IMG/VR virus record: IMGVR_UViG_3300042868_005761
Coordinates: 32,001 to 96,000 of that record
DNA: 64,000 bases
Direction: 5' to 3' (one strand)
Origin: a virus
Below, piece by piece: positions 6,314-39,113 of this stretch; position 1 is the first letter of the stretch; the number at the start of each line of letters is the position of its first letter. The position numbers were made by a program, and so were the translations under genes. Under the pieces are notes generated by a model. That model worked only from the letters and a program-made list of their open reading frames with translations. It was not told the origin of the DNA and made no database searches.

Positions 6314-6751
6314 ATGAGAAAATATAAAGATTATACAGATCAGCAAATAATAGATGCTGTTAAGGCTAGTAAAAGCATTTCCCAAGTACTTAAAGTTCTT
6401 GGGCTAAAGCAAGCTGGAGGTAATTACGCAAATGTCCAACGGAACATCCAAAGACTATTGTGTGACACCTCTCACTTTACTGGCAAAGGTTGGAATAAAG
6501 ATCAACAGTTGAAAGACTGGAGTTCTTATTCTAAAGCTGCTAATCTAAAACCTCATTTAATAAAAAAGCGTACTCATCAATGCGAACAATGTAATCTTTC
6601 AGAATGGCTTTCTGAGCAGATAAAATTGGAAATACATCACATTGATGGAGATAGGACAAATAATGTAGAAGAAAACTTGCAGTTGCTTTGTCCAAACTGT
6701 CATTCTATGACAGACTCTTGGAGAAAAGCAAACCATTTAAGGAAAGTGTAG
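6314..6751 (+). CDS. Intron-encoded HNH homing endonuclease (ORF open from 6266; likely start 6314)
   Basis: CEQC...LEIHHIDGDRTNNVEENLQLLCPNCH; N-terminal helical DNA-binding-like segment; stop codon falls within the intron core element GTGTAG. Confidence 0.88.
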   Translation: MRKYKDYTDQQIIDAVKASKSISQVLKVLGLKQAGGNYANVQRNIQRLLCDTSHFTGKGWNKDQQLKDWSSYSKAANLKPHLIKKRTHQCEQCNLSEWLSEQIKLEIHHIDGDRTNNVEENLQLLCPNCHSMTDSWRKANHLRKV

Positions 6752-6902
6752 AGACTAGACGGTTGTTACCTAATGTAGAAATACTATGGTAAAGGTATAG
6801 TCCAGACCACAAACGGCATATGCTGGTAGTGAAAACTATAGTGGTAAGAAAATCTGCCTTCCTTGGAATTACGGGTTCAAGTCCCGTCCTGAGCACTTAT
6901 TT

Positions 6903-6984
6903 GGGAGTATCGCATAGTGGCAATTGCAGGGGACTGTAAATCCCCCGACTTCGGTCTACGTTGGTTCGAGTCCATCTACTCCCA
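6903..6984 (+). tRNA. tRNA-Tyr(GTA)
   Basis: Acceptor GGGAGTA/TACTCCC; anticodon arm GGGGA-CT-GTA-AA-TCCCC; long variable arm GAC-TTCG-GTC. Confidence 0.92.
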
Positions 6985-7030
6985 CTTTATATTAATTCTA
7001 TTTAAACTTTAATAGATTATAGGTTTTACT

Positions 7031-8631: not shown

Positions 8632-9702
8632 ATGGAATCTAATAATTACTCTGCTTCTCGAGAAGTGGAATTCGTTGATATTGTTGTTGGGCTTGCTTGG
8701 GGTGATGAAGGCAAAGGCAAGGTTGTTAGCTCACTTGTTGACTACCAGCATTATGACTTTGTCTGTCGCTTTAACGGCGGCCCTAATGCAGGTCATACTG
8801 TTTACTTGGATGGTAAGCAGTACAAGACCCACCTTATCCCTAGCGGAGTATTCCACGGTGTTCCCAGCATCATTGGTCCTGCTTGCGTAATCAATGTTAG
8901 CAAGTTCATGGCAGAGATTGCCTATCTAGAAGCTAATGGGTTTGATACGAGTCTTGTTAAGGTTTCACCTAAGGCTCATGTAATTACTCAGGATCACATT
9001 AGCTATGACACTAATTATCTTTCACATCTTGGTACTACCGGACAAGGTATTGCTCCGTGTTATTCAGACAAGATGTTGCGTAAAGGAATTCGTGCGGCTG
9101 AAATGCTTGATCCTAAGTGGATCTGGGATGAGCAACTTTTTGGTTGCATTCTTGCAGAAGGTGCACAGAGCGTTTGGTTAGATATTGATCATGGATCATA
9201 CCCATACGTTACTAGCAGCTCTACTCTGCCATATAATGCTTGTTCTCTTGGCTTTTCGCCTAGAGACATCTATAAAATTATTGGCGTTGGTAAGATGTAC
9301 GATACTAAGAGTGGTGCTGATCCTATGTTTCCTGTTAGCCTAATGACTGATCCAGTTCTTGCTGAGATTGGCAGGCTTGGAAAGGAGCAAGGTACAACTA
9401 CTGGACGTCAAAGAATTGTTAATTATCTTAATCTTGATAAGATGATTGCTGCAATTCGTTTGTCTGGTGTAACTAATGTTGTAATTAACAAGGGCGATAT
9501 TCTTAATAAGATTGAGGATGGGAATCCATTCAAGTTTTATTATCAGAATGAGCTTGTTGTCTGCCGAGCGCTTAAGCAAATGCAGGATACTATTGCAGGA
9601 ATTATTGAAAGAGAATGTCCTAATCTTCTACAGGAAGAGGTGATTTTCTCTGATCATCCAGAAATTGTTAATTGGGAGGAATATTTTCCATGGAACAAGT
9701 AG
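8632..9702 (+). CDS. purA: Adenylosuccinate synthetase (canonical PurA, short form)
   Basis: WGDEGKGK with catalytic Asp retained, GGPNAGHT, GTTGQGIAP, EGAQ, YPYVTSS, GTTTGRQR, NKGD; RBS before ATG 8632. Confidence 0.9.
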   Translation: MESNNYSASREVEFVDIVVGLAWGDEGKGKVVSSLVDYQHYDFVCRFNGGPNAGHTVYLDGKQYKTHLIPSGVFHGVPSIIGPACVINVSKFMAEIAYLEANGFDTSLVKVSPKAHVITQDHISYDTNYLSHLGTTGQGIAPCYSDKMLRKGIRAAEMLDPKWIWDEQLFGCILAEGAQSVWLDIDHGSYPYVTSSSTLPYNACSLGFSPRDIYKIIGVGKMYDTKSGADPMFPVSLMTDPVLAEIGRLGKEQGTTTGRQRIVNYLNLDKMIAAIRLSGVTNVVINKGDILNKIEDGNPFKFYYQNELVVCRALKQMQDTIAGIIERECPNLLQEEVIFSDHPEIVNWEEYFPWNK

Positions 9703-10838
9703 AAACTACTGATGATGCTGTAACTAATTACTTTTTGCCTACCCTTTATAAGAAAGTAAATGGCAATAAGATTGAGGAATGGACTATTGCCGTCTTAGGT
9801 AATGGTTCATTCTACACAACAAGTGGGCATATTGATGGTGTTAAAACTACCAGTAAGCCTACTCTTTGTGAGCCAATGAATGTTGGCAAGAAAAATGCGA
9901 CTACTGCTGCTGATCAAGCTGCAAAGGAAGCAAAGGCTAAATGGGATAAGCAGATCAAGAAAGGCTACACTGAGACTGTCGAGAACGTAGATGAGGCTCT
10001 ACCTTACCAGGTAATGCTCGCTAAGAACTACGATGACTACGCAGATGACATTACTTGGCCTGCTTATACTCAGCCTAAGCTAGATGGCATTCGGTGCCGG
10101 ATCAATAAGGATGGTATGTGGACTAGAAACAATGAAAAGATTGTATCATGTCCTCATATTAATACAGCACTTGCTTCATTCTTTGAGAAGTGTCCGGATG
10201 TCCAGCTAGATGGCGAGCTTTACAATCATGAATTTAAGGATAACTTTAATAAGATTGTAGAACTTGTTAAGCGCCAGAAGATTGACGATGCTCAACTTGC
10301 TGAAAGCAAGAAGTATATTCAATTCTGGTGTTACGACAATATGGTAAGTGGTAACTTCATTGACCGCCTTAAGTTCTTTAAGCAATACAATACGTTTGGT
10401 ATGAAACTGATCGACATGAAATATGTCACAACAGTTGAAACACACACTGTAAATAGCCAGGAAGAAGTCCAGGCTAAGCTTACTGCATATCTTAAGGAAG
10501 GATATGAAGGTCTTATGCTTAGAAGAAATACTGCTTATGAGAATAAGCGAAGTAAGAATCTTCTAAAGCTTAAGAAGTTTATCGATAGCGAGTATGAGAT
10601 TGTTAACGTTGTTGAGGGCGAGGGGAACAAGTCTGGCATGGCTGGGGCATTTACCCTGGTCATGTCAGACGGTCGCCACTTTAATAGTAATATTATGGGT
10701 CCTCATGACTATCTTGTGAGACTATGGGAGAACAAAGATTCACTTATAGGTAAGCAGGTAACTATTCAATATTTCAATCTCACCCCTGATGGGGTACCTA
10801 GGTTTCCATATGCGAAAGCATTAAGAGACTACGAATAA
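9690..10838 (+). CDS. ATP-dependent DNA ligase with N-terminal extension
   Basis: Motif I KLDGIR, LDGELY, EGLMLR, LLKLKK, PRFP. Confidence 0.92.
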   Translation: MEQVETTDDAVTNYFLPTLYKKVNGNKIEEWTIAVLGNGSFYTTSGHIDGVKTTSKPTLCEPMNVGKKNATTAADQAAKEAKAKWDKQIKKGYTETVENVDEALPYQVMLAKNYDDYADDITWPAYTQPKLDGIRCRINKDGMWTRNNEKIVSCPHINTALASFFEKCPDVQLDGELYNHEFKDNFNKIVELVKRQKIDDAQLAESKKYIQFWCYDNMVSGNFIDRLKFFKQYNTFGMKLIDMKYVTTVETHTVNSQEEVQAKLTAYLKEGYEGLMLRRNTAYENKRSKNLLKLKKFIDSEYEIVNVVEGEGNKSGMAGAFTLVMSDGRHFNSNIMGPHDYLVRLWENKDSLIGKQVTIQYFNLTPDGVPRFPYAKALRDYE

Positions 10839-30514: not shown

Positions 30515-31618
30515 ATGGCGTCATTGACAATCTCCTCTAGTGAATTAGAAAAAGTCGCTAGAATAGCCCTGGACGCAGACATTCCTGTTTGCGTCTGGGG
30601 CGCTAGTGGTATTGGTAAAAGCACAATTATATCCAAGACAATAGACAATTTCTTTCGAGACCTAAAGCTTGAGACTCCTATGTTTTGTAAGAGTATCTTT
30701 GCTAAGCGTCAAGTATCTAGTGTGTTTAATCCTTCATCTTTCGATCTTAGATTAGCACATACAGATACTGCAGACTGGGGTATACCAGTTGTAGATGCTG
30801 AACGGATGGTCCATAGAAAAACAAAGCCTTCTTGGCTTCCCAACTCTGTAGACTCAGATTTCTTTGTTCTTTTTGTAGACGAATTAAATCGTGGCACGCA
30901 AGAAGGCATTAATGCAATGATGAGTATCACAGCAGAACGTCGGCTAGGTGAGTATCCTTTACCTCAGAATAGCCGCCTAATTAGTGCTTGTAATCCTCCT
31001 GTTGGCGAGTTTAATACCGATACACTAGACAAAGCTATGAAAAGCAGATGGGCTCATGTCCATTACAACTTAACAACTTCTGAATTCTTATCTCAATGCT
31101 CCGATATAATCGATCCGGCTATGTCGTATATCCTCTCTAATATGAATAATCCTATTGAGAATATACAGTCTGGTCAACTTGCAGGAGAATGGGATATCGA
31201 AAAAGAAATTAGCCCATGTCCTCGTACTATCGAGATGCTTAATCGTCTTGCTCTCTGGACTCTCTGGGCCAGAACTAATGGTATAGAGATTACTGGGGAA
31301 ACAAAGACGGCAGTCTTTGCACTTGCCAGTGGTTTAATTAAATCTAACATTGCTAATAAATGGCTTAACATTCTTCTTAACAAGGACTGGATTGCTAAAG
31401 AATCATTCTTTAACGATTCTATTCTTAATAGAATTAACTCAAAGACCATAGACTACTATGATAGTGTTCTTGTTTTCTCTGAGTATAAGAACTTAATTCC
31501 AACCTTGACAAAGGATCAACTAGCTAGCACTCAGTATATTTTGCAATATGCAAAAGAGTATCCTGAATTCTATGCTATGTTGTCTCAGACAAAATGGCAG
31601 GTCAATACCTTAGAATGA
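30515..31618 (+). CDS. Second MoxR-like AAA+ ATPase
   Basis: GASGIGKS, LFVDELNR, SACNP, AMKSRW, CPRT. Confidence 0.85.
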   Translation: MASLTISSSELEKVARIALDADIPVCVWGASGIGKSTIISKTIDNFFRDLKLETPMFCKSIFAKRQVSSVFNPSSFDLRLAHTDTADWGIPVVDAERMVHRKTKPSWLPNSVDSDFFVLFVDELNRGTQEGINAMMSITAERRLGEYPLPQNSRLISACNPPVGEFNTDTLDKAMKSRWAHVHYNLTTSEFLSQCSDIIDPAMSYILSNMNNPIENIQSGQLAGEWDIEKEISPCPRTIEMLNRLALWTLWARTNGIEITGETKTAVFALASGLIKSNIANKWLNILLNKDWIAKESFFNDSILNRINSKTIDYYDSVLVFSEYKNLIPTLTKDQLASTQYILQYAKEYPEFYAMLSQTKWQVNTLE

Positions 31619-32958
31619 GCAATATAAATAAATTAATAAAATACATTTCCGATTTATCCTTTAAATCATCTTCAAGTACTAAATCTTATGTATCTAATTA
31701 CAATTATTTATTTCGATACTTGCCATATATAAATAAGCATTATCTAAACGATACAACAGTAAAAGAACAAGGCTTTGGTGAGAAGTTCATTGCTGCTATA
31801 TCTTGGGATAAGGAGAGTAAAGAGTATTGTCTTTATCTGCATGCGGATAAGATGGCAAGTTACTCTGAGCATCAGAACGCTTTTATTATTCTTCACGAGC
31901 TAAAGCATTTTATATATGCTCATCCTGTGAAGATGTATAAGACTCCAAGACAATATCACTTATTACTTAACATTGCTCAAGACATAAAGTTAAACACCGA
32001 ACTCCTATTTGAAGATCAGTCTTACGATTGTCTACAGCCGGATTACGGGTTTACTAATGTTGTGGACGATGTCTTTTATACTGGAGTGAAAGAGTTAGGA
32101 AACATAAATCATCCTAGTCTATCTCTTCACTATCTTTCTCCATCTAGTCCTTTGTATCAGGGACTAGGAGGACTAAGAAGAAGTATTTTTAAGATAACTA
32201 CTGAGGAAATCTTTGAATGGCTTAAGCTTAATGTTACAGATGAAGACATCTTAAAAGCCGAATCAGATCTTTCTGATGATATGCTTGATGACTTTGAGCT
32301 GACAGATGAAGAGATTAAGGATAGAGAAGCTACATTAGAAAAACAGATAGCAAAAATTCCGGATATCTCCCAAGACCCATTTTTAAATGACACTAGTTTT
32401 GAGAAATATGATACTCAAAGGATTACAGTAAAAGAAACCTCTGATACTGCTTTGCGACTAATTGAACAGTTAAAAAGAGCAGGTAAGAAAAATAAATCTA
32501 ACCCTTCTTGGGCTAAGTATAACTGCGTACTTCCTGGAGTATTGCCTGGTCATGAGAAAACTACTCGCCCTCTAATTGCTTGTATTCTTGATACAAGTGG
32601 TAGCATTGACTTGTTGCTTGCTCAAAAATTTGTATCTTATATAAAGAAGTTATCAAGGCATGCAAACATACATTACCTGATGGGTGATACGGTTGTTAGA
32701 GAAGAATTAGTAAAGACAAAGAACAGAAGCTTTGCAGATAGTATTGATTGGAAAGGTGGTGGCGGAACAGATTTGAATCCTGCAATAAAAAGAATTAATC
32801 AACATAACGGTAGATACAAATATGACGCAATATTATGTTTCACTGATGGGATAATTCCAGAAATAAATAAAAGTAATATTACAAATAAATTTTATCTAGT
32901 TGTGCCGAAGGAGACAGTCAATCGTAAATTACCTAACTTGAACAAGATCTATTTGTAA
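31615..32958 (+). CDS. VWA-like domain protein with N-terminal HEXXH metallopeptidase-like domain (DUF2201-type)
   Basis: HELKH, NIAQD; MIDAS DTSGS, GGGGTD, FTDG. Confidence 0.85.
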   Translation: MSNINKLIKYISDLSFKSSSSTKSYVSNYNYLFRYLPYINKHYLNDTTVKEQGFGEKFIAAISWDKESKEYCLYLHADKMASYSEHQNAFIILHELKHFIYAHPVKMYKTPRQYHLLLNIAQDIKLNTELLFEDQSYDCLQPDYGFTNVVDDVFYTGVKELGNINHPSLSLHYLSPSSPLYQGLGGLRRSIFKITTEEIFEWLKLNVTDEDILKAESDLSDDMLDDFELTDEEIKDREATLEKQIAKIPDISQDPFLNDTSFEKYDTQRITVKETSDTALRLIEQLKRAGKKNKSNPSWAKYNCVLPGVLPGHEKTTRPLIACILDTSGSIDLLLAQKFVSYIKKLSRHANIHYLMGDTVVREELVKTKNRSFADSIDWKGGGGTDLNPAIKRINQHNGRYKYDAILCFTDGIIPEINKSNITNKFYLVVPKETVNRKLPNLNKIYL

Positions 32959-32966
32959 GGAACTCA

Positions 32967-33869
32967 ATGCAAGAGCCAAAGGAAGTATTTCATCCGTCAA
33001 TAATCGATGTGGAATATTCAGCAGATCTAGGGCCTTTATTCACGGACGACCCTGTTACTATTGATGATCTTGACTTTGATCCATGGTTTGAGATGACACC
33101 ACCACCAGTTAATAGCTATTGGTGCTTTAGACATGGAAGCTATAGTGCTCTTAAACGTTGGAATGGAGAAGCTTTAGTCAATATAAATCTACCTACAGTT
33201 AAGAAATTTGCGCCTAAGAACTTAGAGCAAAAATATTTACTGTCTGCTTTATATGATCAAAATATCCCAATGCTTACAGTTTTTGGTGGCGCTGGCTCAG
33301 GTAAAACCTATGTGACAATGGTTGCTGCCATTAATATGCTTGATGAAAAGAAATTCGAAAGAATTATTCTAACTAAGAGTAGAGCCCAAGCTACGACTGC
33401 TAGCGGTGGTAGAATTGGCGATGTTCCAGGCACGATCATAGATAAGATGAAACCTGTTTTTAGCTCTTACGAACGCGCTCTTGCAAAGATTTGGGGTAAA
33501 ACTTACCTAAAGATCTTTGAACAGAAGCTTGAAGAAGGCAAGATTGAATGCATTCCTTTGGAATATATGCGCGGTGAAGACTTTACAAATGCTTTAGTCA
33601 TTTGTGATGAAGCCCAGAACGTTGAGATCCATCAGTTTAAGACTCTAATAACTCGTTTAGGTGAGAAGAGTAAGTTAATACTTATGGCTGATACAGATCA
33701 GATTGACGAAAAAGAAAACCGTAAAGGTAAACTTTGCCCAGTCCTTCAAACAATCGGACTTGACATTTACCAAGAGAGTCCACTTACTAGCTTCGTAGAA
33801 CTTATTGAAATTGAGCGCAGTCCTTTGGCTGAGCTTGGAATACAGATCTGCAAGAAACTAGTCGCTTAA
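32967..33869 (+). CDS. phoH: PhoH-family ATPase
   Basis: GGAGSGKT, YMRG, DEAQN, TRLGE, DQID, ERS. Confidence 0.92.
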   Translation: MQEPKEVFHPSIIDVEYSADLGPLFTDDPVTIDDLDFDPWFEMTPPPVNSYWCFRHGSYSALKRWNGEALVNINLPTVKKFAPKNLEQKYLLSALYDQNIPMLTVFGGAGSGKTYVTMVAAINMLDEKKFERIILTKSRAQATTASGGRIGDVPGTIIDKMKPVFSSYERALAKIWGKTYLKIFEQKLEEGKIECIPLEYMRGEDFTNALVICDEAQNVEIHQFKTLITRLGEKSKLILMADTDQIDEKENRKGKLCPVLQTIGLDIYQESPLTSFVELIEIERSPLAELGIQICKKLVA

Positions 33870-33881
33870 TACTTTTTGCTA

Positions 33882-33935
33882 TTGCAAACCATGTGGTGAC
33901 GGGCTATACTTAGCCTTGTCACCTATTGGTGTTTG
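33882..33935 (+). promoter_or_regulatory. Sigma70-like promoter of dnaE embedded in a long inverted repeat
   Basis: TTGCAA(33882)-17 nt-TATACT(33905); hairpin GGTGACGGGCTA-TACT-TAGCCTTGTCACC. Confidence 0.6.
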
Positions 33936-33962
33936 TTCATTTTTAACATAAGAGAGAATGAT

Positions 33963-35243
33963 ATGGGAATGGTACATCTTCACGCACATAGTTATTATTC
34001 ATTGCTTGATGGCTTACAGCCAGCTGATCAAATGGGCAAGATTGTTGCGTCTAGAGGGATGAATGCAGTTGCTTTGACCGACCATGGATATATGGGTGGC
34101 ATTCCAGAGTTTGTAAAAGGTTGCCGGGCTGCTAATGTAAAGCCTATTATTGGCAATGAGACTTATCTTGCATTTAATGATGCTAAGACTAAGTCTGATT
34201 TTATGCCTGAGAACGGTGTTGCAGAGAAAGCAGTTAACAATGGTCATTTCTTATTGCTTGCTAAGAATGAAGAAGGTTATAAGAACCTAATGAAGCTTAC
34301 TAAGTATTCATATGAGGATGGCTTTTATCGTTATCCTCGCATTGACTTGGAGATGTTTAAGCAGCATGCTAAGGGCTTGATTGCTACTAGTACTTGTATC
34401 AGTAGTCAGTGCTTTAAGTACTGGCACTGGGGTGAACATGCAAAGATTGATAGATGGTGTGATGAAGTTAGAGAGGCAGTCGGCGACGACAGCTTCTTCC
34501 TTGAGCTTCAGCATAACAATGTTGAAAAGCAATATGGCTATAATCAATATCTAATTGATCTAAGTAAGCGCAAGAATATTCCCCTTGTCCTTACTGCAGA
34601 TGCACATCATCAGAACCAAGATCAGTATAAACTACGTAGCTATGTTATGTGTGTGAGTATGCATAAGACTCCAGATACAATGCCATATGAAGTCCAAGAT
34701 CACAATGCTTGGATGTATGATGCCGAATTTGCTAAGAGTTTATGCGACGATTGGCAATTGCCACACGAAGCAATTACTAATACTCAGCATGTAGCAGATC
34801 TTGTAGATGGTGACTACTTTGAAAGAGTCACTAGAGCTCCCAATCTTCAGCTTGAAGGTCTTACTCCGGAAGGCACAAGCTTAATGTTGCTTAAGAAGGC
34901 TAAGGCTGGACTTATAGCTAGACTTGGCGTAGCTACCTGGGCGGATGTTCCTAAGGCATATAAGGATAGAATTAAATACGAGTTCCAAGTCATTGACGAG
35001 GCTCGTTATAGTTCTTATTTCCTTGTCGTTCAGGACTATGTTAGTCTTGCTAAGGGTATGGGTATACCCGTTGGCCCAGCACGTGGTTCTGGTGGCGGAT
35101 CTTTGATCTCATGGTCACTTGGAATCACTGCCAAGCATCTTGATCCTGTTAAGCATGGCTTACTCTTTGAGCGCTTCCTGAATCCTGGTCGAGTAAGAAT
35201 ATCTTTAGACTTCTCAGAGGATATGAAGGAATTAAATGCTTAA
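33963..35243 (+). CDS. dnaE: DNA polymerase III alpha, N-terminal fragment (PHP domain plus start of the palm)
   Basis: HLHAHSYYSLLDG, ALTDHG, KPIIGNE, HFLLLAKN, TADAH, GPARGSGGGSL, LLFERFLNPGR, then stop 16 aa later. Confidence 0.92.
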   Translation: MGMVHLHAHSYYSLLDGLQPADQMGKIVASRGMNAVALTDHGYMGGIPEFVKGCRAANVKPIIGNETYLAFNDAKTKSDFMPENGVAEKAVNNGHFLLLAKNEEGYKNLMKLTKYSYEDGFYRYPRIDLEMFKQHAKGLIATSTCISSQCFKYWHWGEHAKIDRWCDEVREAVGDDSFFLELQHNNVEKQYGYNQYLIDLSKRKNIPLVLTADAHHQNQDQYKLRSYVMCVSMHKTPDTMPYEVQDHNAWMYDAEFAKSLCDDWQLPHEAITNTQHVADLVDGDYFERVTRAPNLQLEGLTPEGTSLMLLKKAKAGLIARLGVATWADVPKAYKDRIKYEFQVIDEARYSSYFLVVQDYVSLAKGMGIPVGPARGSGGGSLISWSLGITAKHLDPVKHGLLFERFLNPGRVRISLDFSEDMKELNA

Positions 35244-35526
35244 AAATATAAAGATAGATATGCCAGAGGTTCCTTATCGCAACACAATTGCAGAAGAATT
35301 TGTTTACAATACAGAAACTCAAAGCATAGAGTCTCTAAAGGAGTCTTTTATTCTTAAGTCTATATTTAACAAGAAGAACTTCTGGGCTATCAAGCATCCT
35401 TTTTTAATATTACTTGCTTTATTCTTTAGATACATTATGATTAATAACCAAGTATCTAATGCACATCATAAGCGTAAAGAAACTTTACACTTATTTAAAT
35501 CTATTGCCCGTCAATGCTGGAGTTAG
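35236..35526 (+). CDS. Small gene inserted between the two dnaE fragments
   Basis: GAAGGA RBS, ATG overlapping the dnaE-N stop; TAG ends 1 nt before the dnaE-C ATG; hydrophobic stretch FLILLALFF. Confidence 0.6.
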   Translation: MLKNIKIDMPEVPYRNTIAEEFVYNTETQSIESLKESFILKSIFNKKNFWAIKHPFLILLALFFRYIMINNQVSNAHHKRKETLHLFKSIARQCWS

Positions 35527-35527
35527 A

Positions 35528-37945
35528 ATGTCAATTACTATAGAAAACATACGATCTTTCTTTGACAAGGAAAGGTTGCCAGCTGTTAATAAAGACTATT
35601 TGGAGTTTGAGATTAAGTATCTTACTCCTGAAACTCTAGTATTTATAAACAATGCTTATGATTCACAGAAATCATTGTCTAATAAGTCTAATAGTGCAAT
35701 TCTATATTTGCTTAATTTGTCTGACAATTATAATTCCGATTCACGTATAACTTATAACGTAGACGGCGAAGGTCCAGACATTGACACTGACTTTTGTAAT
35801 GTCCGTGCTGATGATCTAATCAAAGCACTCCAAACTAAATATGGTCATGACCGTGTTCTTCGTGTCTCAACTTATAAGCCATGGTCTCTTAAGACCAGTG
35901 TTAAGGCTTTTACTAAGTTACTCAAGAACGCAGATGGATCATACAGAACTATTGCTGACGCAGAACGTCTTGCTGATAGTTTGCCTGAGAGTCACCGTGG
36001 TAAATACGTAACTTACAAAGAGCTTATCGAAGATAATAGTGAGCACATTAAGAAGATTGTAGAAGCTAATCAAGATATCTTTAGTCTTTGCGGACCAGTA
36101 GATGGCCAAGCTAAGGAAGTTAGCGTTCATGCTAGCGCAGTTCTAATTGGTACAAGTCCAGTAGACCAGATGATTCCAATTCGCAAAAGCAAGACTGAAG
36201 GCGCAGACTGGTTTAATCTTACGCAGTGGGAAGGTCCAACTCTAGAAAAGATGAACTTTATTAAGTTCGATATCCTTAGAATTGACTGTCTTACTATTAA
36301 TGATCTTACCTGTAAGCGTATTGGCAAGTCCCTTAAATGGCTAGAGGAAGAAGTTCCTACTGATGATCCAGCCGTGTTTGAGTTAATCAATAAGGGATTT
36401 ACAGCTGGACTATTCCAGATGGAAGAGACCTATCTCCTAAAGCTTGTAGCTGATCTTAAGCCACAGAGCGTTCAGGATCTTGCAGTTTTCTCAGCTCTTA
36501 ATCGTCCTGGTCCTCGTGACTCTGGTCTTCTCCAAGACTATATTGATTACAAGACAACTAAAGAGACTCAGAATAAATTACATCCCTTGCTTGATGGTAT
36601 ACTTGCTGAGACCGGAGGTGTTCTTATTTACCAAGAACAAATTATGGCAGCATGTCAAATTCTTGCAGGTGTAACCTTACAAGAAGCTGATAAGATTAGA
36701 AAAGCAATGGGCAAGAAGGACGCTATTCTAATGGAGGAGTATCGCACACTTTTTGTGGATGGCTGTGGACGTCTTCATCAGATTAATACTAGCGAAGCAA
36801 CTCGTATATGGAATATCATTGCAGCATTTGCTGAGTATGGATTTAATAAAAGTCATGCTCTTGCTTATGCTTTCATTACATATTTCAATGCATATCTTAA
36901 AACTTACTACCCTACAGACTTTATGCTTACGCTAATGACTGTTAGGAGTGGTAAGCCAGAGAAACTGGTTCGTTATATCAACGAGTATCGGCAGATGGGA
37001 TACAATATTCTTCCACCTAGCATTAACAATAGTGATATTGGTTTTACTAAGTTGGATGATAACACTATCCTATTTGGCCTTGGCATGATCAATGGCATTG
37101 GTAACAAAGCTAGCGATCTTATACTCAAGGCTCGTGGCCGGAAGTCCTTTACAAGCATGGCTGATTTCTTTACTAGAATTAATCGAACAAAGATTAATGC
37201 TGGCGTTGTTAGCATACTTGCAAAGGTTGGTGCCTTTGATAGCTTTGGATATGACAGAGTTAAGCTTGTAGAGAAACTTTCTGATATCTTTGATTACTAT
37301 ACAAAGGTTGAAAACTATCAAACAAGAATAGTTCAAGCTTTTGAACGTAACAAAGAGCTAGATGCTTATCCTGCATTGCTCGATGACTGGACTACCAAAG
37401 TAAAAGCTGGTGTCATTACAGTACAACTAGATTCTGACAGTAAGAAGGTTTACTCTGAACTAAGACCTAAGAAGCCATTGGTACTCAAAGTTCCAGAACA
37501 GCCTGTCTTTCCTGACCTAGAGTCTATCAAGAAAAGTCTGGGATACAAAGTCCCACTTCAAATTGTCAAATGGGAATCTGAATATTGTAAGTTCTTTATT
37601 AGCCGCCATCCTCTGTCCTATATCACTAAGACGCCTCCTGGCATTTTAATTAGTCAAATAGAGGATATAGATGAAACAAATAGTAACGAAGGCAATCTGC
37701 TCGTTGCGGTATCTCATATTAAAGAACAGCAAATTAAAAGTGGTAAATCGAAAGGAAAATTAATGGCAACATTGACAATCGAAGATTTATCTTCTATATC
37801 AGAAGTCACATTGTTCTCAGATCAATATGAAGAATTGAAAGACAAACTTGACTATTGTTCCCTATTATTTTTCCCCTACAAAGCAACTAAGAAAGATGAC
37901 TTCTTACGGATTCGCCCAGTAGGAAAAATTACTTTAATAAAGTAA
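35528..37945 (+). CDS. dnaE: DNA polymerase III alpha, C-terminal fragment (catalytic Asps, fingers, HhH, OB)
   Basis: GPDIDTDF, SVHASAV, KFDIL, GLFQME, ALNRPGP, LIYQEQIM, YGFNKSHA, PPSINNS, GAFDSF, TIEDLS; GGAG RBS before ATG 35528. Confidence 0.92.
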   Translation: MSITIENIRSFFDKERLPAVNKDYLEFEIKYLTPETLVFINNAYDSQKSLSNKSNSAILYLLNLSDNYNSDSRITYNVDGEGPDIDTDFCNVRADDLIKALQTKYGHDRVLRVSTYKPWSLKTSVKAFTKLLKNADGSYRTIADAERLADSLPESHRGKYVTYKELIEDNSEHIKKIVEANQDIFSLCGPVDGQAKEVSVHASAVLIGTSPVDQMIPIRKSKTEGADWFNLTQWEGPTLEKMNFIKFDILRIDCLTINDLTCKRIGKSLKWLEEEVPTDDPAVFELINKGFTAGLFQMEETYLLKLVADLKPQSVQDLAVFSALNRPGPRDSGLLQDYIDYKTTKETQNKLHPLLDGILAETGGVLIYQEQIMAACQILAGVTLQEADKIRKAMGKKDAILMEEYRTLFVDGCGRLHQINTSEATRIWNIIAAFAEYGFNKSHALAYAFITYFNAYLKTYYPTDFMLTLMTVRSGKPEKLVRYINEYRQMGYNILPPSINNSDIGFTKLDDNTILFGLGMINGIGNKASDLILKARGRKSFTSMADFFTRINRTKINAGVVSILAKVGAFDSFGYDRVKLVEKLSDIFDYYTKVENYQTRIVQAFERNKELDAYPALLDDWTTKVKAGVITVQLDSDSKKVYSELRPKKPLVLKVPEQPVFPDLESIKKSLGYKVPLQIVKWESEYCKFFISRHPLSYITKTPPGILISQIEDIDETNSNEGNLLVAVSHIKEQQIKSGKSKGKLMATLTIEDLSSISEVTLFSDQYEELKDKLDYCSLLFFPYKATKKDDFLRIRPVGKITLIK

Positions 37946-37952
37946 GGTTTCC

Positions 37953-39113
37953 ATGAATACAGTTATTTGGCAGAAAGAGGATCTTGATACTTGGATCCCA
38001 GGTACTTTACTTTGTATTAAGTACAATATATCTCGACATACGCTAGAGCGCCTTGCCAAGAGGGGAGCCATAGAAGTACAGAAGGGTGAAAATCCTAAAG
38101 CTACTTCTACCTTGAATAAGATTATTAATTACTATAAGATCCCAAGTAGTAAGAACATCAAGACTAAGAAGATTGGCCCTACTAAGCCAACTGTTATCCA
38201 AGCTCTAGCAAGCGCAGAAGACCCCAAGGATGTCACAAAGGATGTTGAGAAGGCAGGTAGTATACAAGCTTATCTCGATGCCGTTAAGGACGCGAAGGAC
38301 AAGGTCTTCTTAACAAAGAAGGCTAGCACTGCAGAAGCAGCAATTAAGATTCTTAGTTTAAGTGATATTCACTTTCCATTCCAGAACCAAGAAATAATTG
38401 ATGAAGTTATTGAGTTACATAAGGATGCAGACATTCTTGTACTTAATGGCGACTTACTAGATGGTTACGCCGCTAGTAGCTTTGCCAAGGATAAGAATAT
38501 TCCTATGCATCTAGAGTATACAATGGCTTTAGAGTTTGTTCGTAAAGTTTCTGGAATCTTTCCTCAAGTTTATATCGTACGTGGCAACCACGAGCATAGA
38601 CTTGAAAAATACTTTGCTAATAAGATTGATCCGACCATGCAGATGTTTGCATGCAAGGACACTCTGTATTACCTAGCAAAGGGTTATATCCTAGATGAGG
38701 ATGGTGCTCATATTGGCACTGTAGAACTACCAAACGTTATATACAATCCACAGGGTAATCCTTGGATCCTTCAACTAAACAAGACCGTATTTTTACACCC
38801 AAGCACTTATCTTAGCGCTCCTCTCGGCACTGTAGTTAAAGCTTGCGATTATTTGCAAAACTTCCTAGAATGGGATAGTTATGATTGCGTTGTTATGGGA
38901 CATACACATAAGCTGGGTAAGCTTGTCTACAAGGGTAAACTTGTAATGGAACAAGGTTGCTTAGTTAAGTTGATGGACTATCAGCGCAGTGCTAAGTTCA
39001 CAAAGGAAGCAGTTACATTAGGATATGCAGTCGTTTACCAAGACCAAGATGGCAATACATTATTTAACGAGACTGACGTTAAGTATTGCGGAACATTAAA
39101 CTATTTAAAGTAA
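37953..39113 (+). CDS. Calcineurin-like metallophosphoesterase with N-terminal extension
   Basis: LSDIH, NGDLLD, GNHE, GHTH. Confidence 0.85.
   Translation: MNTVIWQKEDLDTWIPGTLLCIKYNISRHTLERLAKRGAIEVQKGENPKATSTLNKIINYYKIPSSKNIKTKKIGPTKPTVIQALASAEDPKDVTKDVEKAGSIQAYLDAVKDAKDKVFLTKKASTAEAAIKILSLSDIHFPFQNQEIIDEVIELHKDADILVLNGDLLDGYAASSFAKDKNIPMHLEYTMALEFVRKVSGIFPQVYIVRGNHEHRLEKYFANKIDPTMQMFACKDTLYYLAKGYILDEDGAHIGTVELPNVIYNPQGNPWILQLNKTVFLHPSTYLSAPLGTVVKACDYLQNFLEWDSYDCVVMGHTHKLGKLVYKGKLVMEQGCLVKLMDYQRSAKFTKEAVTLGYAVVYQDQDGNTLFNETDVKYCGTLNYLK

What the first reader, a model, noticed from the sequence alone, without database searches (positions are those of the whole stretch)
33963..37945. DnaE split through its active site with no intein, plus an intervening gene
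Seen: the normally contiguous motif FERFLNPxR-xxx-PDIDxDF is broken. FERFLNPGR ends at 35192 in ORF1, followed by a 16-aa tail; PDIDTDF starts at 35774 in ORF3 after an 82-aa novel leader. The three ORFs are in three different frames, and ORF2 and ORF3 each have an RBS and tight stop/start coupling, which argues against a sequencing frameshift. No intein termini (Cys/Ser start, His-Asn end) or group I/II intron motifs are visible. Established: the RGS motif and the FERF..R arginines bind the incoming dNTP, while the PDxD and KxD aspartates bind metal; the well-known split cyanobacterial DnaE is rejoined by a split intein at a different site. Inference: the catalytic centre is assembled in trans from two polypeptides (a PHP proofreading subunit and a catalytic subunit), possibly with the 96-aa ORF as a third subunit or regulator.
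Basis: partly seen in the sequence, partly recalled or inferred. Interest (0 to 1): 0.86.

Follow-up and report, generated by a model that had tools for sequence, protein, structure and literature searches.

The report
Two-gene phage DnaE polymerase, no intein
This 176-kb uncultured lake phage, like a large clade of relatives, encodes its only recognisable DNA polymerase (bacterial DnaE type) as two separate proteins cut through the catalytic centre with no intein or intron to rejoin them, so the active site is most likely built from both chains.

Summary
dnaE is cut between FERFLNPGR (ends 35192) and PDIDTDF (starts 35774) into dnaE-N (33963-35243) and dnaE-C (35528-37945), with a 96-aa gene between them and all three in different frames.

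It is not an assembly error. Contigs from four other lake and freshwater runs bridge the junction without indels, and six IMG/VR relatives share the layout.

The split is old and selected:
- Stand-alone N halves run from 96% down to 38% identity, and all 23 sit on one side of a single tree branch.
- The 82-aa leader marks 73 clusters and is always N-terminal.
- dN/dS is 0.02-0.14 for every piece.

No intein, intron or bypass features are present. Modelling supports binding (score 0.81, best control 0.00), though a split gene can pass by likeness to solved DnaE.

The tail and leader are conserved. They look like degenerate copies of the sequence across the break, which suggests partial duplication followed by fission (about 65%).

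ORF2 is a real gene but lineage-specific, so it is not a core subunit.

The closest published case is the split minimal Pol III alpha of jumbo phages (Iyer 2021). This scan has already found the same split on other DNA (133 findings in at least 118 genomes). Verdict: new variant of a known kind.

The parts
33963..35243 (+). dnaE-N (426 aa): PHP exonuclease domain plus the dNTP-binding half of the palm
   Evidence: Pfam PHP 9e-41 (residues 5-184) and PF07733 positions 5-109. Closest solved chain is M. tuberculosis DnaE1 5lew, 1e-58. Stand-alone homologues of 396-440 aa run from 96% to 38% identity.
33975..34514 (+). PHP domain; H5 H7 D16 H41 E66 H95 C145 D213 H215 are invariant in the family
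   Evidence: These residues align with the same residues of M. tuberculosis DnaE1. That these are the metal ligands of an active proofreader is from established knowledge and was not tested here.
35082..35192 (+). dNTP-binding elements: R374-G375-S376 (35082-35090) through FERFLNPGR (35166-35192)
   Evidence: R374 G375 S376 G379 R404 F405 N407 G409 R410 are invariant in 19 N halves.
35193..35240 (+). 16-aa C-terminal tail of dnaE-N, family motif V-[KR]-[IV]-x-L-D-[FY]-S-x-D-L; a degenerate copy of the catalytic strand
   Evidence: Conserved in P0006-P0025. phmmer aligns ISLDF with IDIDF of DnaE1. dN/dS is 0.04-0.09. Residues 413-416 pair with leader residues 75-77 in the model.
35226..35230 (+). 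Shine-Dalgarno-like AAGGA five bases before the ORF2 ATG
   Evidence: Direct reading.
35236..35526 (+). ORF2, a 96-aa protein with one hydrophobic stretch (residues about 49-69); a lineage-specific gene in the inter-half slot
   Evidence: No Pfam or PHROG family. Homologues are all 96 aa at 70-99% identity, falling to 28-32% in the L002 clade. dN/dS is 0.11-0.14. The slot holds unrelated genes or none in other lineages.
35519..35522 (+). Shine-Dalgarno-like GGAG five bases before the dnaE-C ATG
   Evidence: Direct reading.
35528..37945 (+). dnaE-C (805 aa): leader, metal-binding half of the palm, thumb, fingers, HhH, OB
   Evidence: PF07733 positions 101-259, fingers 7e-43, HHH_6 3e-23, OB weak. 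The start at 35528 is supported by relatives.
35528..35773 (+). 82-aa helical leader; invariant R16 E28 N52 N55 S56; hallmark of the split family and probably a degenerate copy of the segment that ends dnaE-N
   Evidence: Profile search gave 73 hits, all N-terminal. Alignment A6. AF2 pLDDT 77.5, helical. hhalign matches ORF1 380-392 with P 0.007, reached by 1 of 150 shuffles. The top 7 of 48,161 chains are C-family polymerases at Z 5.0-2.9. dN/dS is 0.07-0.12.
35774..35794 (+). PDIDTDF catalytic strand (D84, D86)
   Evidence: D84 D86 D88 are invariant in 23 C halves.
36269..36271 (+). D248 in the KFD motif, the third catalytic carboxylate
   Evidence: K246 D248 are invariant. Equivalence to E. 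coli D555 is from established knowledge.

Best explanation
The phage's replicative DnaE is an obligate two-chain enzyme. dnaE-N and dnaE-C are probably made from one transcript by separate, coupled translation starts, and they associate non-covalently.

dnaE-N supplies the PHP proofreading domain and the triphosphate-binding elements (RGS loop, FERFLNPGR). dnaE-C supplies the three metal-binding aspartates, thumb, fingers, HhH and OB domains. The Pol-beta-like nucleotidyltransferase core is therefore rebuilt across the chain boundary.

Two family-specific add-ons lock the halves together. A short beta tail on dnaE-N pairs with the strand that ends the dnaE-C leader, and the helical leader packs on the palm part of dnaE-N.

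The arrangement most likely arose once, by partial tandem duplication of about 90 residues of the palm, complementary degeneration of the two copies, and a stop/start between them. The gap has since become a slot for lineage-specific small genes such as ORF2.

Shown: the split, its conservation, purifying selection on every piece, and the absence of intein, intron and bypass features. Inferred: assembly, the composite active site, co-transcription, and the duplication origin (about 65%).
For: The split is real:
- Contigs of four independent runs bridge the junction with no indels.
- Six IMG/VR relatives share the three-ORF layout.

It is ancient:
- N halves from 96% to 38% identity all end 8-25 aa after FERFLNPGR.
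- The distant relative L009 (30-35% identity) is split at the same site and has a homologous leader.
- All 23 split N halves lie on one side of a single branch (SH-aLRT 96), apart from 84 contiguous DnaEs.
- The leader profile finds 73 clusters, always at residues 1-99 and never inside a contiguous DnaE.

It is under selection:
- dN/dS is 0.02-0.03 for the bodies, 0.04-0.09 for the tail, 0.07-0.12 for the leader and 0.11-0.14 for ORF2.
- The dNTP-binding residues in ORF1 and the aspartates in ORF3 are invariant.

Binding is supported by the model: score 0.81, best of 3 controls 0.00. That mark was reached by 58 of 80 solved complexes and 2 of 110 mismatched pairs. The three runs agree in at least 94% of contacts, and partner pLDDT is at least 78. 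ORF1 359-368 packs on ORF3 97-101 as in a native palm, and tail 413-416 pairs with leader 75-77.

No PolA, PolB or DnaQ-type domain was found in the complete 176-kb genome, so this is the only recognisable polymerase.

Duplication origin:
- phmmer aligns the tail with the catalytic strand of DnaE1.
- hhalign places leader 56-66 on ORF1 380-392 and leader 25-34 on ORF1 337-346, in the same order in both proteins; 1 of 150 shuffles reaches the observed score.
- The only structural neighbours of the leader at Z 2.9 or above are C-family polymerases.
Against: No protein or RNA data exist. No RNA run holds the stretch, so expression, co-transcription and the absence of a joined product are untested.

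The complex pass may only reflect the likeness of a split gene to solved single-chain DnaE structures. My own alignments were used, so the calibration counts hold only roughly.

Sequence evidence that the leader is a duplicate is weak: P 0.007-0.05, no HMM hit to PDB polymerases, and fold-match Z of 5 or below, which is within the range common for helical models.

The tree sample is biased, because only proteins of 234-746 aa were candidates.
Confidence: 0.8

Rival explanations
1. The two halves do not rebuild one site. dnaE-C alone is the polymerase, using its own degenerate leader in place of the missing palm segment, and dnaE-N acts as a separate PHP exonuclease.
For: The leader resembles the missing segment and has invariant N52, N55 and S56. 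PHP domains can act as independent nucleases (established knowledge).
Against: The RGS loop and FERFLNPGR of dnaE-N are invariant from 96% to 38% identity, which is unexplained if they no longer bind dNTP next to the aspartates. The leader has lost the Arg and Gly of RGS and the whole FERF..R motif. In the model the dnaE-N segment, not the leader, takes the canonical position against the helix that follows the catalytic strand.
Confidence: 0.1
2. The pieces are rejoined into one chain by protein splicing, RNA splicing, or ribosomal bypassing or frameshifting.
For: Inteins and introns favour polymerase active sites. The relative L009 has a true split intein further down the same gene. GTA codons at 35193 and 35759 match in this window.
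Against: - There is no Cys or Ser after the N-extein (Val here; V/I/G/A across the family) and no His-Asn plus nucleophile before PDID.
- No intein Pfam hit appears at E up to 0.1, although the same tool detected the L009 intein.
- No Rfam intron hit appears at E up to 10.
- Every base between the halves is coding sequence under purifying selection.
- The gap is 0, about 290 or about 550 bases with unrelated content in different lineages.
- The codon match is lost in L001-L004, and no stop follows the take-off codon.
Confidence: 0.03
3. ORF2 is a third, regulatory or membrane-tethering subunit of the split polymerase.
For: ORF2 is translationally coupled to both halves, is a real gene under purifying selection, and has a hydrophobic helix.
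Against: It is confined to close relatives and diverges much faster than its neighbours (28-32% identity against 92-96%). The slot holds unrelated 185-aa and 181-aa proteins in L028 and L029, and nothing in L030. No family or feature match was found.
Confidence: 0.06
4. It is a broken gene or an assembly artefact.
For: Stop codons and frame changes inside a normally single gene.
Against: The layout is the same in independent assemblies and runs. There is strong purifying selection on every piece, family-wide conservation, and no other polymerase in the genome.
Confidence: 0.01

Closest known systems
Split 'minimal' DNA polymerase III alpha of group 2.2 (T4-like) jumbo phages (Iyer et al. 2021, Viruses 13:63, PMC7824862)
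   Same: A C-family catalytic module divided into an N-terminal NTP-binding protein and a C-terminal Mg- and template-binding protein, predicted to reconstitute one enzyme. No intein was described. It was inferred from sequence only.
   Different: That version is minimal, with no PHP or other domains. Its genes are far apart, and it accompanies a family B polymerase. Here the enzyme is a full-length PHP-to-OB DnaE with adjacent, coupled genes and a conserved tail and leader, and it is the only recognisable polymerase in the genome.
Single-chain DnaE with active PHP proofreader (M. tuberculosis DnaE1, PDB 5lew/7pu7; T. aquaticus 2hpi)
   Same: Same domain order and catalytic residues. It is the best solved match to dnaE-N (1e-58), and all nine PHP ligand positions are kept.
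   Different: One polypeptide there, two here. There is also an extra degenerate palm copy (tail plus leader) that single-chain enzymes lack.
Fractured genes and cyanobacterial split dnaE rejoined by split inteins (Dassa et al. 2009, PMC2677866)
   Same: Phage or metagenomic dnaE encoded in pieces, with other genes lying between them. The relative L009 has such a split intein at a second site.
   Different: At this break there are no intein halves, no homing endonuclease, and no chemistry to rejoin the chains.
Phage genes-in-pieces without inteins (Aeromonas phage Aeh1 nrdA split by mobE; split gp43 of T4-related phages). Recalled from memory, not read here.
   Same: Essential phage replication enzymes that work as non-covalent fragments after a gene was interrupted.
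   Different: Those splits are recent, tied to a homing endonuclease, and fall between domains. This one is ancient and clade-wide, lies inside the catalytic core, and has no endonuclease in the gap.

Membership tests
C-family DNA polymerase, DnaE type (Pol III alpha) | N-terminal PHP domain | tested here: met
   PF02811 9e-41. The nine ligand positions are invariant and align with DnaE1.
C-family DNA polymerase, DnaE type (Pol III alpha) | Pol-beta-like palm with a GS loop, FERFLNPxR and three catalytic Asp residues | tested here: met
   All are present and invariant, but they are shared between two chains: R374-S376 and R404-R410 in ORF1; D84, D86 and D248 in ORF3.
C-family DNA polymerase, DnaE type (Pol III alpha) | Fingers, HhH and OB domains | tested here: met
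   PF17657 7e-43 and PF14579 3e-23. The OB match is weak (E 0.06) in the window but clear in L009.
C-family DNA polymerase, DnaE type (Pol III alpha) | Catalytic core on one polypeptide | tested here: not met
   A stop, a 285-base gap and a frame change lie between the halves, confirmed in independent contigs.
Split-intein fractured gene | N-intein starting with Cys or Ser directly after the N-extein | tested here: not met
   Val411 here; V, I, G or A across the family.
Split-intein fractured gene | C-intein ending His-Asn, followed by Cys, Ser or Thr | tested here: not met
   The leader ends GEG (GGSP in the wider family) before Pro of PDID.
Split-intein fractured gene | HINT fold or domain detectable | tested here: not met
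   No intein family at E up to 0.1. The leader model is all-helical. Positive control: the L009 intein was detected at 2.6e-7.
Split-intein fractured gene | Free-standing homing endonuclease between the halves | tested here: not met
   ORF2 and the L028 and L029 slot genes have no endonuclease family.
Group I or group II intron | Conserved ribozyme core; non-coding intervening RNA | tested here: not met
   No Rfam intron match at E up to 10. The gap is fully occupied by ORFs with dN/dS 0.07-0.14. Gap content is unrelated between lineages.
T4 gene 60-type translational bypass | Conserved matching take-off and landing codons, a stop after take-off, and a short non-coding gap | tested here: not met
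   GTA/GTA occurs only in this window; L001 has GTA/GTT. AGA, not a stop, follows the take-off codon, and the gap is 566 coding bases.
Split minimal Pol III alpha of jumbo phages (Iyer 2021) | Break between the NTP-binding and Mg-binding subdomains | tested here: met
   The break lies between FERFLNPGR and PDID. The paper's description was read.
Split minimal Pol III alpha of jumbo phages (Iyer 2021) | Minimal architecture, distant genes, co-occurrence with a family B polymerase | tested here: not met
   Full PHP-to-OB architecture and adjacent genes. No PF00136 match in the genome.

The most novel reading that the evidence does not exclude
The split is not neutral. The composite active site makes polymerase activity depend on assembly of two subunits, giving the phage a control point: the stoichiometry or timing of the PHP/dNTP-binding subunit, or escape from host factors that target single-chain DnaE. 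The coupled slot between the halves would then be a conserved landing site where lineage-specific small proteins such as the membrane-type ORF2 tune or localise the replisome.
Probability: 0.1. Interest if true: 0.8.

Novelty: new variant of a known kind. Interest (0 to 1): 0.6.

Why it matters
C-family replicases are textbook single-chain catalytic subunits. Here a large natural clade builds the nucleotidyltransferase active site from two polypeptides. The dNTP-binding residues sit on one chain and the metal ligands on the other, and no intein joins them.

That gives a natural system for asking how far a polymerase core can be divided. It also gives a clear example of gene fission by partial duplication and complementary degeneration, and a ready-made split polymerase scaffold for engineering.

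For annotation, it warns that these genes are not pseudogenes or frameshift errors.

Tried and rejected
- blastn of the locus against 50,697 phage records: no match. tblastn of the leader (window copy and a consensus-like copy) against the same records: no match. No cultured phage with this leader was found at BLAST sensitivity.
- Rfam at E up to 10: only chance snoRNA-like rows.
- Leader profile against PDB sequences: only chance RalGDS rows at E 0.6-0.8, and no polymerase.
- Foldseek of the leader model: a single row, DnaE1 7pu7, at E 8.
- ESM Atlas for ORF2: no usable hit.
- No RNA holder was listed for the stretch, so expression and splicing could not be examined.
- Beta-clamp idea for the tail (note e1-5645090): RISLDF loosely resembles a Q-x-x-L-x-F clamp motif, and no PF00712 clamp gene is in the genome. 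The tail aligns with the catalytic strand and pairs with the leader in the model, so I prefer a structural role. A host clamp was not tested.
- Promoter and terminator scan: counts are at or below shuffle expectation and no terminator lies between the halves.
- The leader motif N-P-H-N-S was considered as an intein His-Asn/Ser junction. It was rejected because this window has N-K-S-N-S, the domain is helical and about 55 aa long, and the N half carries no intein part.
Full report
**What is there**

The window is part of a 176,231-base virus record rated 100% complete. Runs that hold the stretch are labelled lake-water and freshwater metagenomes, and four of them were laid and confirmed.

Three ORFs in three frames lie between 33963 and 37945:
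- dnaE-N, 33963-35243, 426 aa.
- ORF2, 35236-35526, 96 aa. Its ATG overlaps the end of dnaE-N by 8 bases, and AAGGA lies five bases upstream.
- dnaE-C, 35528-37945, 805 aa. Its ATG is two bases after the ORF2 stop, and GGAG lies five bases upstream.

Pfam cuts the polymerase domain PF07733 cleanly: profile positions 5-109 are in dnaE-N and 101-259 are in dnaE-C residues 82-250. PHP lies in front, with fingers, HhH and a weak OB match behind. PHROG 405 gives the same picture, with positions 42-440 and 443-1051.

**Not an artefact**

Contigs from four other lake or freshwater runs were laid on 34900-36100. They bridge the junction with substitutions only and no indels, and one contig covers the whole stretch.

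Six IMG/VR contigs from other metagenomes share the three-ORF layout. Two are 99% identical. Four are 91-96% identical in the DnaE parts.

**Old and selected**

A length-restricted protein search found a graded series of stand-alone N halves of 396-440 aa, from 96% down to 38% identity, several on contigs of 95-193 kb. All end 8-25 residues after FERFLNPGR. The main group shares a tail motif, V-[KR]-[IV]-x-L-D-[FY]-S-x-D-L.

A profile of the 82-aa leader was searched against 1.84 billion representatives. It found 73 clusters at E up to 0.001, apart from three very long proteins with repeated weak matches that I take to be spurious. The leader always lies within the first 99 residues, in C halves of about 800-850 aa or in fragments, and never inside a contiguous DnaE.

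In loci fetched for three family members the gene order is RecA, unknown, DUF2201, PhoH, dnaE-N, slot, dnaE-C, metallophosphatase. The distant relative L009 (30-35% identity) is split at the same place and has a homologous leader.

In a maximum-likelihood tree of 107 N-terminal regions, the 23 split forms lie on one side of a single branch (SH-aLRT 96), apart from 84 contiguous DnaEs. This is compatible with one origin, although the sample is biased by the length filter.

Between the relatives L002, L003 and L004, dN/dS values are:

| Piece | dN/dS |
|---|---|
| dnaE-N and dnaE-C bodies | 0.02-0.03 |
| Tail | 0.04-0.09 |
| Leader | 0.07-0.12 |
| ORF2 | 0.11-0.14 |

Changes are concentrated at third codon positions in every piece. 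All of the DNA between the two conserved motifs is therefore translated sequence under selection.

**No rejoining mechanism**

- Intein: the residue after the N-extein is Val (V, I, G or A across the family), and the leader ends GEG or GGSP before Pro. The Cys/Ser and His-Asn/nucleophile junctions are therefore absent. Pfam finds no intein domain. The same tool does detect the genuine split intein that cuts L009's gene a second time, at FADY|CLHGDT and ASN|CFNKSH.
- Intron: Rfam gives no intron match at E up to 10.
- Gap content: the gap between the halves is 0 bases (a TAATG overlap) in L030, about 290 bases here, and about 550 bases in L028 and L029, and its content is unrelated between lineages. 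No conserved RNA or bypass signal can therefore be common to the family.
- Bypass: the GTA/GTA codon match proposed for bypassing is absent even in the 99% relative L001.

**How it most likely works**

The dNTP-binding residues of dnaE-N (R374, G375, S376, R404, F405, N407, G409, R410) are invariant across the family. So are the carboxylates of dnaE-C (D84, D86, D248). Conservation of the dnaE-N residues is most simply explained if they still face the aspartates.

A complex prediction of dnaE-N with dnaE-C residues 1-450 supports binding. The score was 0.81 and the best of 3 controls was 0.00. That mark was reached by 58 of 80 solved complexes and 2 of 110 mismatched pairs. The three runs agree in at least 94% of contacts, and partner pLDDT is at least 78.

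Because these are halves of a split gene, the pass may reflect likeness to solved single-chain DnaE structures. My own alignments were used, so the calibration counts hold only roughly.

Within the model:
- ORF1 359-368 packs on ORF3 97-101, as in a native palm.
- Tail residues 413-416 pair with leader residues 75-77.
- Leader residues 27-59 also touch dnaE-N.

No PolA, PolB, DnaQ-type or beta-clamp domain was found in the genome. This two-chain enzyme, with its intact PHP ligand set, is therefore the only recognisable polymerase and proofreader.

**Origin**

phmmer aligns the tail (R-I-S-L-D-F) with the catalytic strand (D-I-D-I-D-F) of M. tuberculosis DnaE1. The tail thus looks like a copy of that strand that has lost both catalytic aspartates.

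Profile-profile comparison puts the leader on the segment that ends dnaE-N, in the same order:
- Leader 18-72 on ORF1 327-397, P 0.03-0.05.
- With a 121-sequence profile, leader 56-66 on ORF1 380-392 (P 0.007) and leader 25-34 on ORF1 337-346.
- Only 1 of 150 column shuffles reaches the observed score.

The leader alone folds as a small helical domain (pLDDT 77.5). In an exhaustive structural search of 48,161 chains, its seven best matches are all C-family polymerases, starting near residue 283-310 or PolC 826. The Z scores are only 5.0-2.9.

Taken together, I put about 65% on partial tandem duplication of the palm segment, complementary degeneration, and fission.

**ORF2**

ORF2 is a real gene. 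Its homologues are all 96 aa at 70-99% identity, and dN/dS is 0.11-0.14. It has one hydrophobic stretch.

It is confined to close relatives. It is only 28-32% identical between this window and the L002 clade, while the flanking genes are 92-96% identical. Other lineages carry unrelated genes or nothing in the slot. It is therefore unlikely to be a core subunit. The slot behaves as a variable cassette site.

**Comparison with what is known**

Iyer et al. 2021 (PMC7824862, read) described a minimal Pol III alpha in T4-like jumbo phages. It is split into NTP-binding and Mg-binding proteins encoded by distant genes and sits beside a family B polymerase. That is the same subdomain boundary, but a different architecture and context.

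Dassa et al. 2009 (PMC2677866) described fractured dnaE genes rejoined by split inteins.

I found no paper describing a full-length PHP-containing DnaE split here without an intein. No cultured phage with the leader was found.

This scan has already reported the same arrangement on other DNA: 133 findings in at least 118 genomes, with follow-up agents reaching similar verdicts. Those notes are not independent evidence.

**Verdict**

Trans-assembly of the active site is the best explanation (0.8). The ORF2-subunit and bypass ideas are not supported. This is a new variant of a known kind.

Noticed in passing
L009:3499-10330: A distant relative has a three-piece dnaE. It carries the same intein-free break, plus a second break with a split intein (FADY|CLHGDT at about 6690-6987; ASN|CFNKSH in the ORF at 9077-10330). 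About 2.1 kb of other genes lie between the intein halves, including a 474-aa protein with AIAAVQADVDQNE-type repeats, and no recognisable homing endonuclease.
   Followed up: partly
window 35193-35773 versus L002-L006:5665-6240: There is a gradient of divergence centred on ORF2. ORF2 is 28-32% identical in protein, the leader 56-65%, and the flanking DnaE bodies 92-96%. dS is also higher in ORF2 and the leader (0.7-1.7 against 0.4-0.7). One run holds a contig in which this stretch has the same length but is diverged. This suggests a recombination or hypervariable cassette.
   Followed up: partly
proteins P0134, P0135, P0151, P0160, P0162: Several short family fragments end with GGSPPD followed by C-I, C-N or C-K instead of I-D-x-D-F. 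This may be an intein inserted exactly at PD^ID in some members, or just truncated contigs.
   Followed up: no
proteins P0030, P0084: Two N halves of 407-427 aa, one labelled Patescibacteria at source, end LLFERF followed by an unrelated tail (for example LAIQEKFYITKKDFGIHD). They may be a separate kind of dnaE split in bacteria.
   Followed up: no
L030:6293-8608: In this relative the C half is called as three consecutive genes (418 aa palm plus fingers, 197 aa HhH, 185 aa). These could be further fission, frameshifts or assembly errors.
   Followed up: no
L008:2091-7590 and L014-L024:6001-8405: Other phage dnaE genes carry insertions elsewhere: about 2.7 kb between the PHP domain and the palm in L008, and about 1 kb with a frame change between ORF3-equivalent residues 411 and 424 in L014-L024. 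These are probably inteins or introns.
   Followed up: no
window 31594-39113: There is a conserved replication-module synteny across the split family: RecA, an unknown gene, a DUF2201/VWA-like protein, a PhoH-like ATPase, dnaE-N, dnaE-C, and a metallophosphatase.
   Followed up: partly
PHROGs phrog_13169 (463 positions) and phrog_12219 (823 positions): Two PHROG families look like stand-alone N and C halves of DnaE. The second begins right at the PDxD strand without a leader. This hints at an independent split at the same site in catalogued phages.
   Followed up: no
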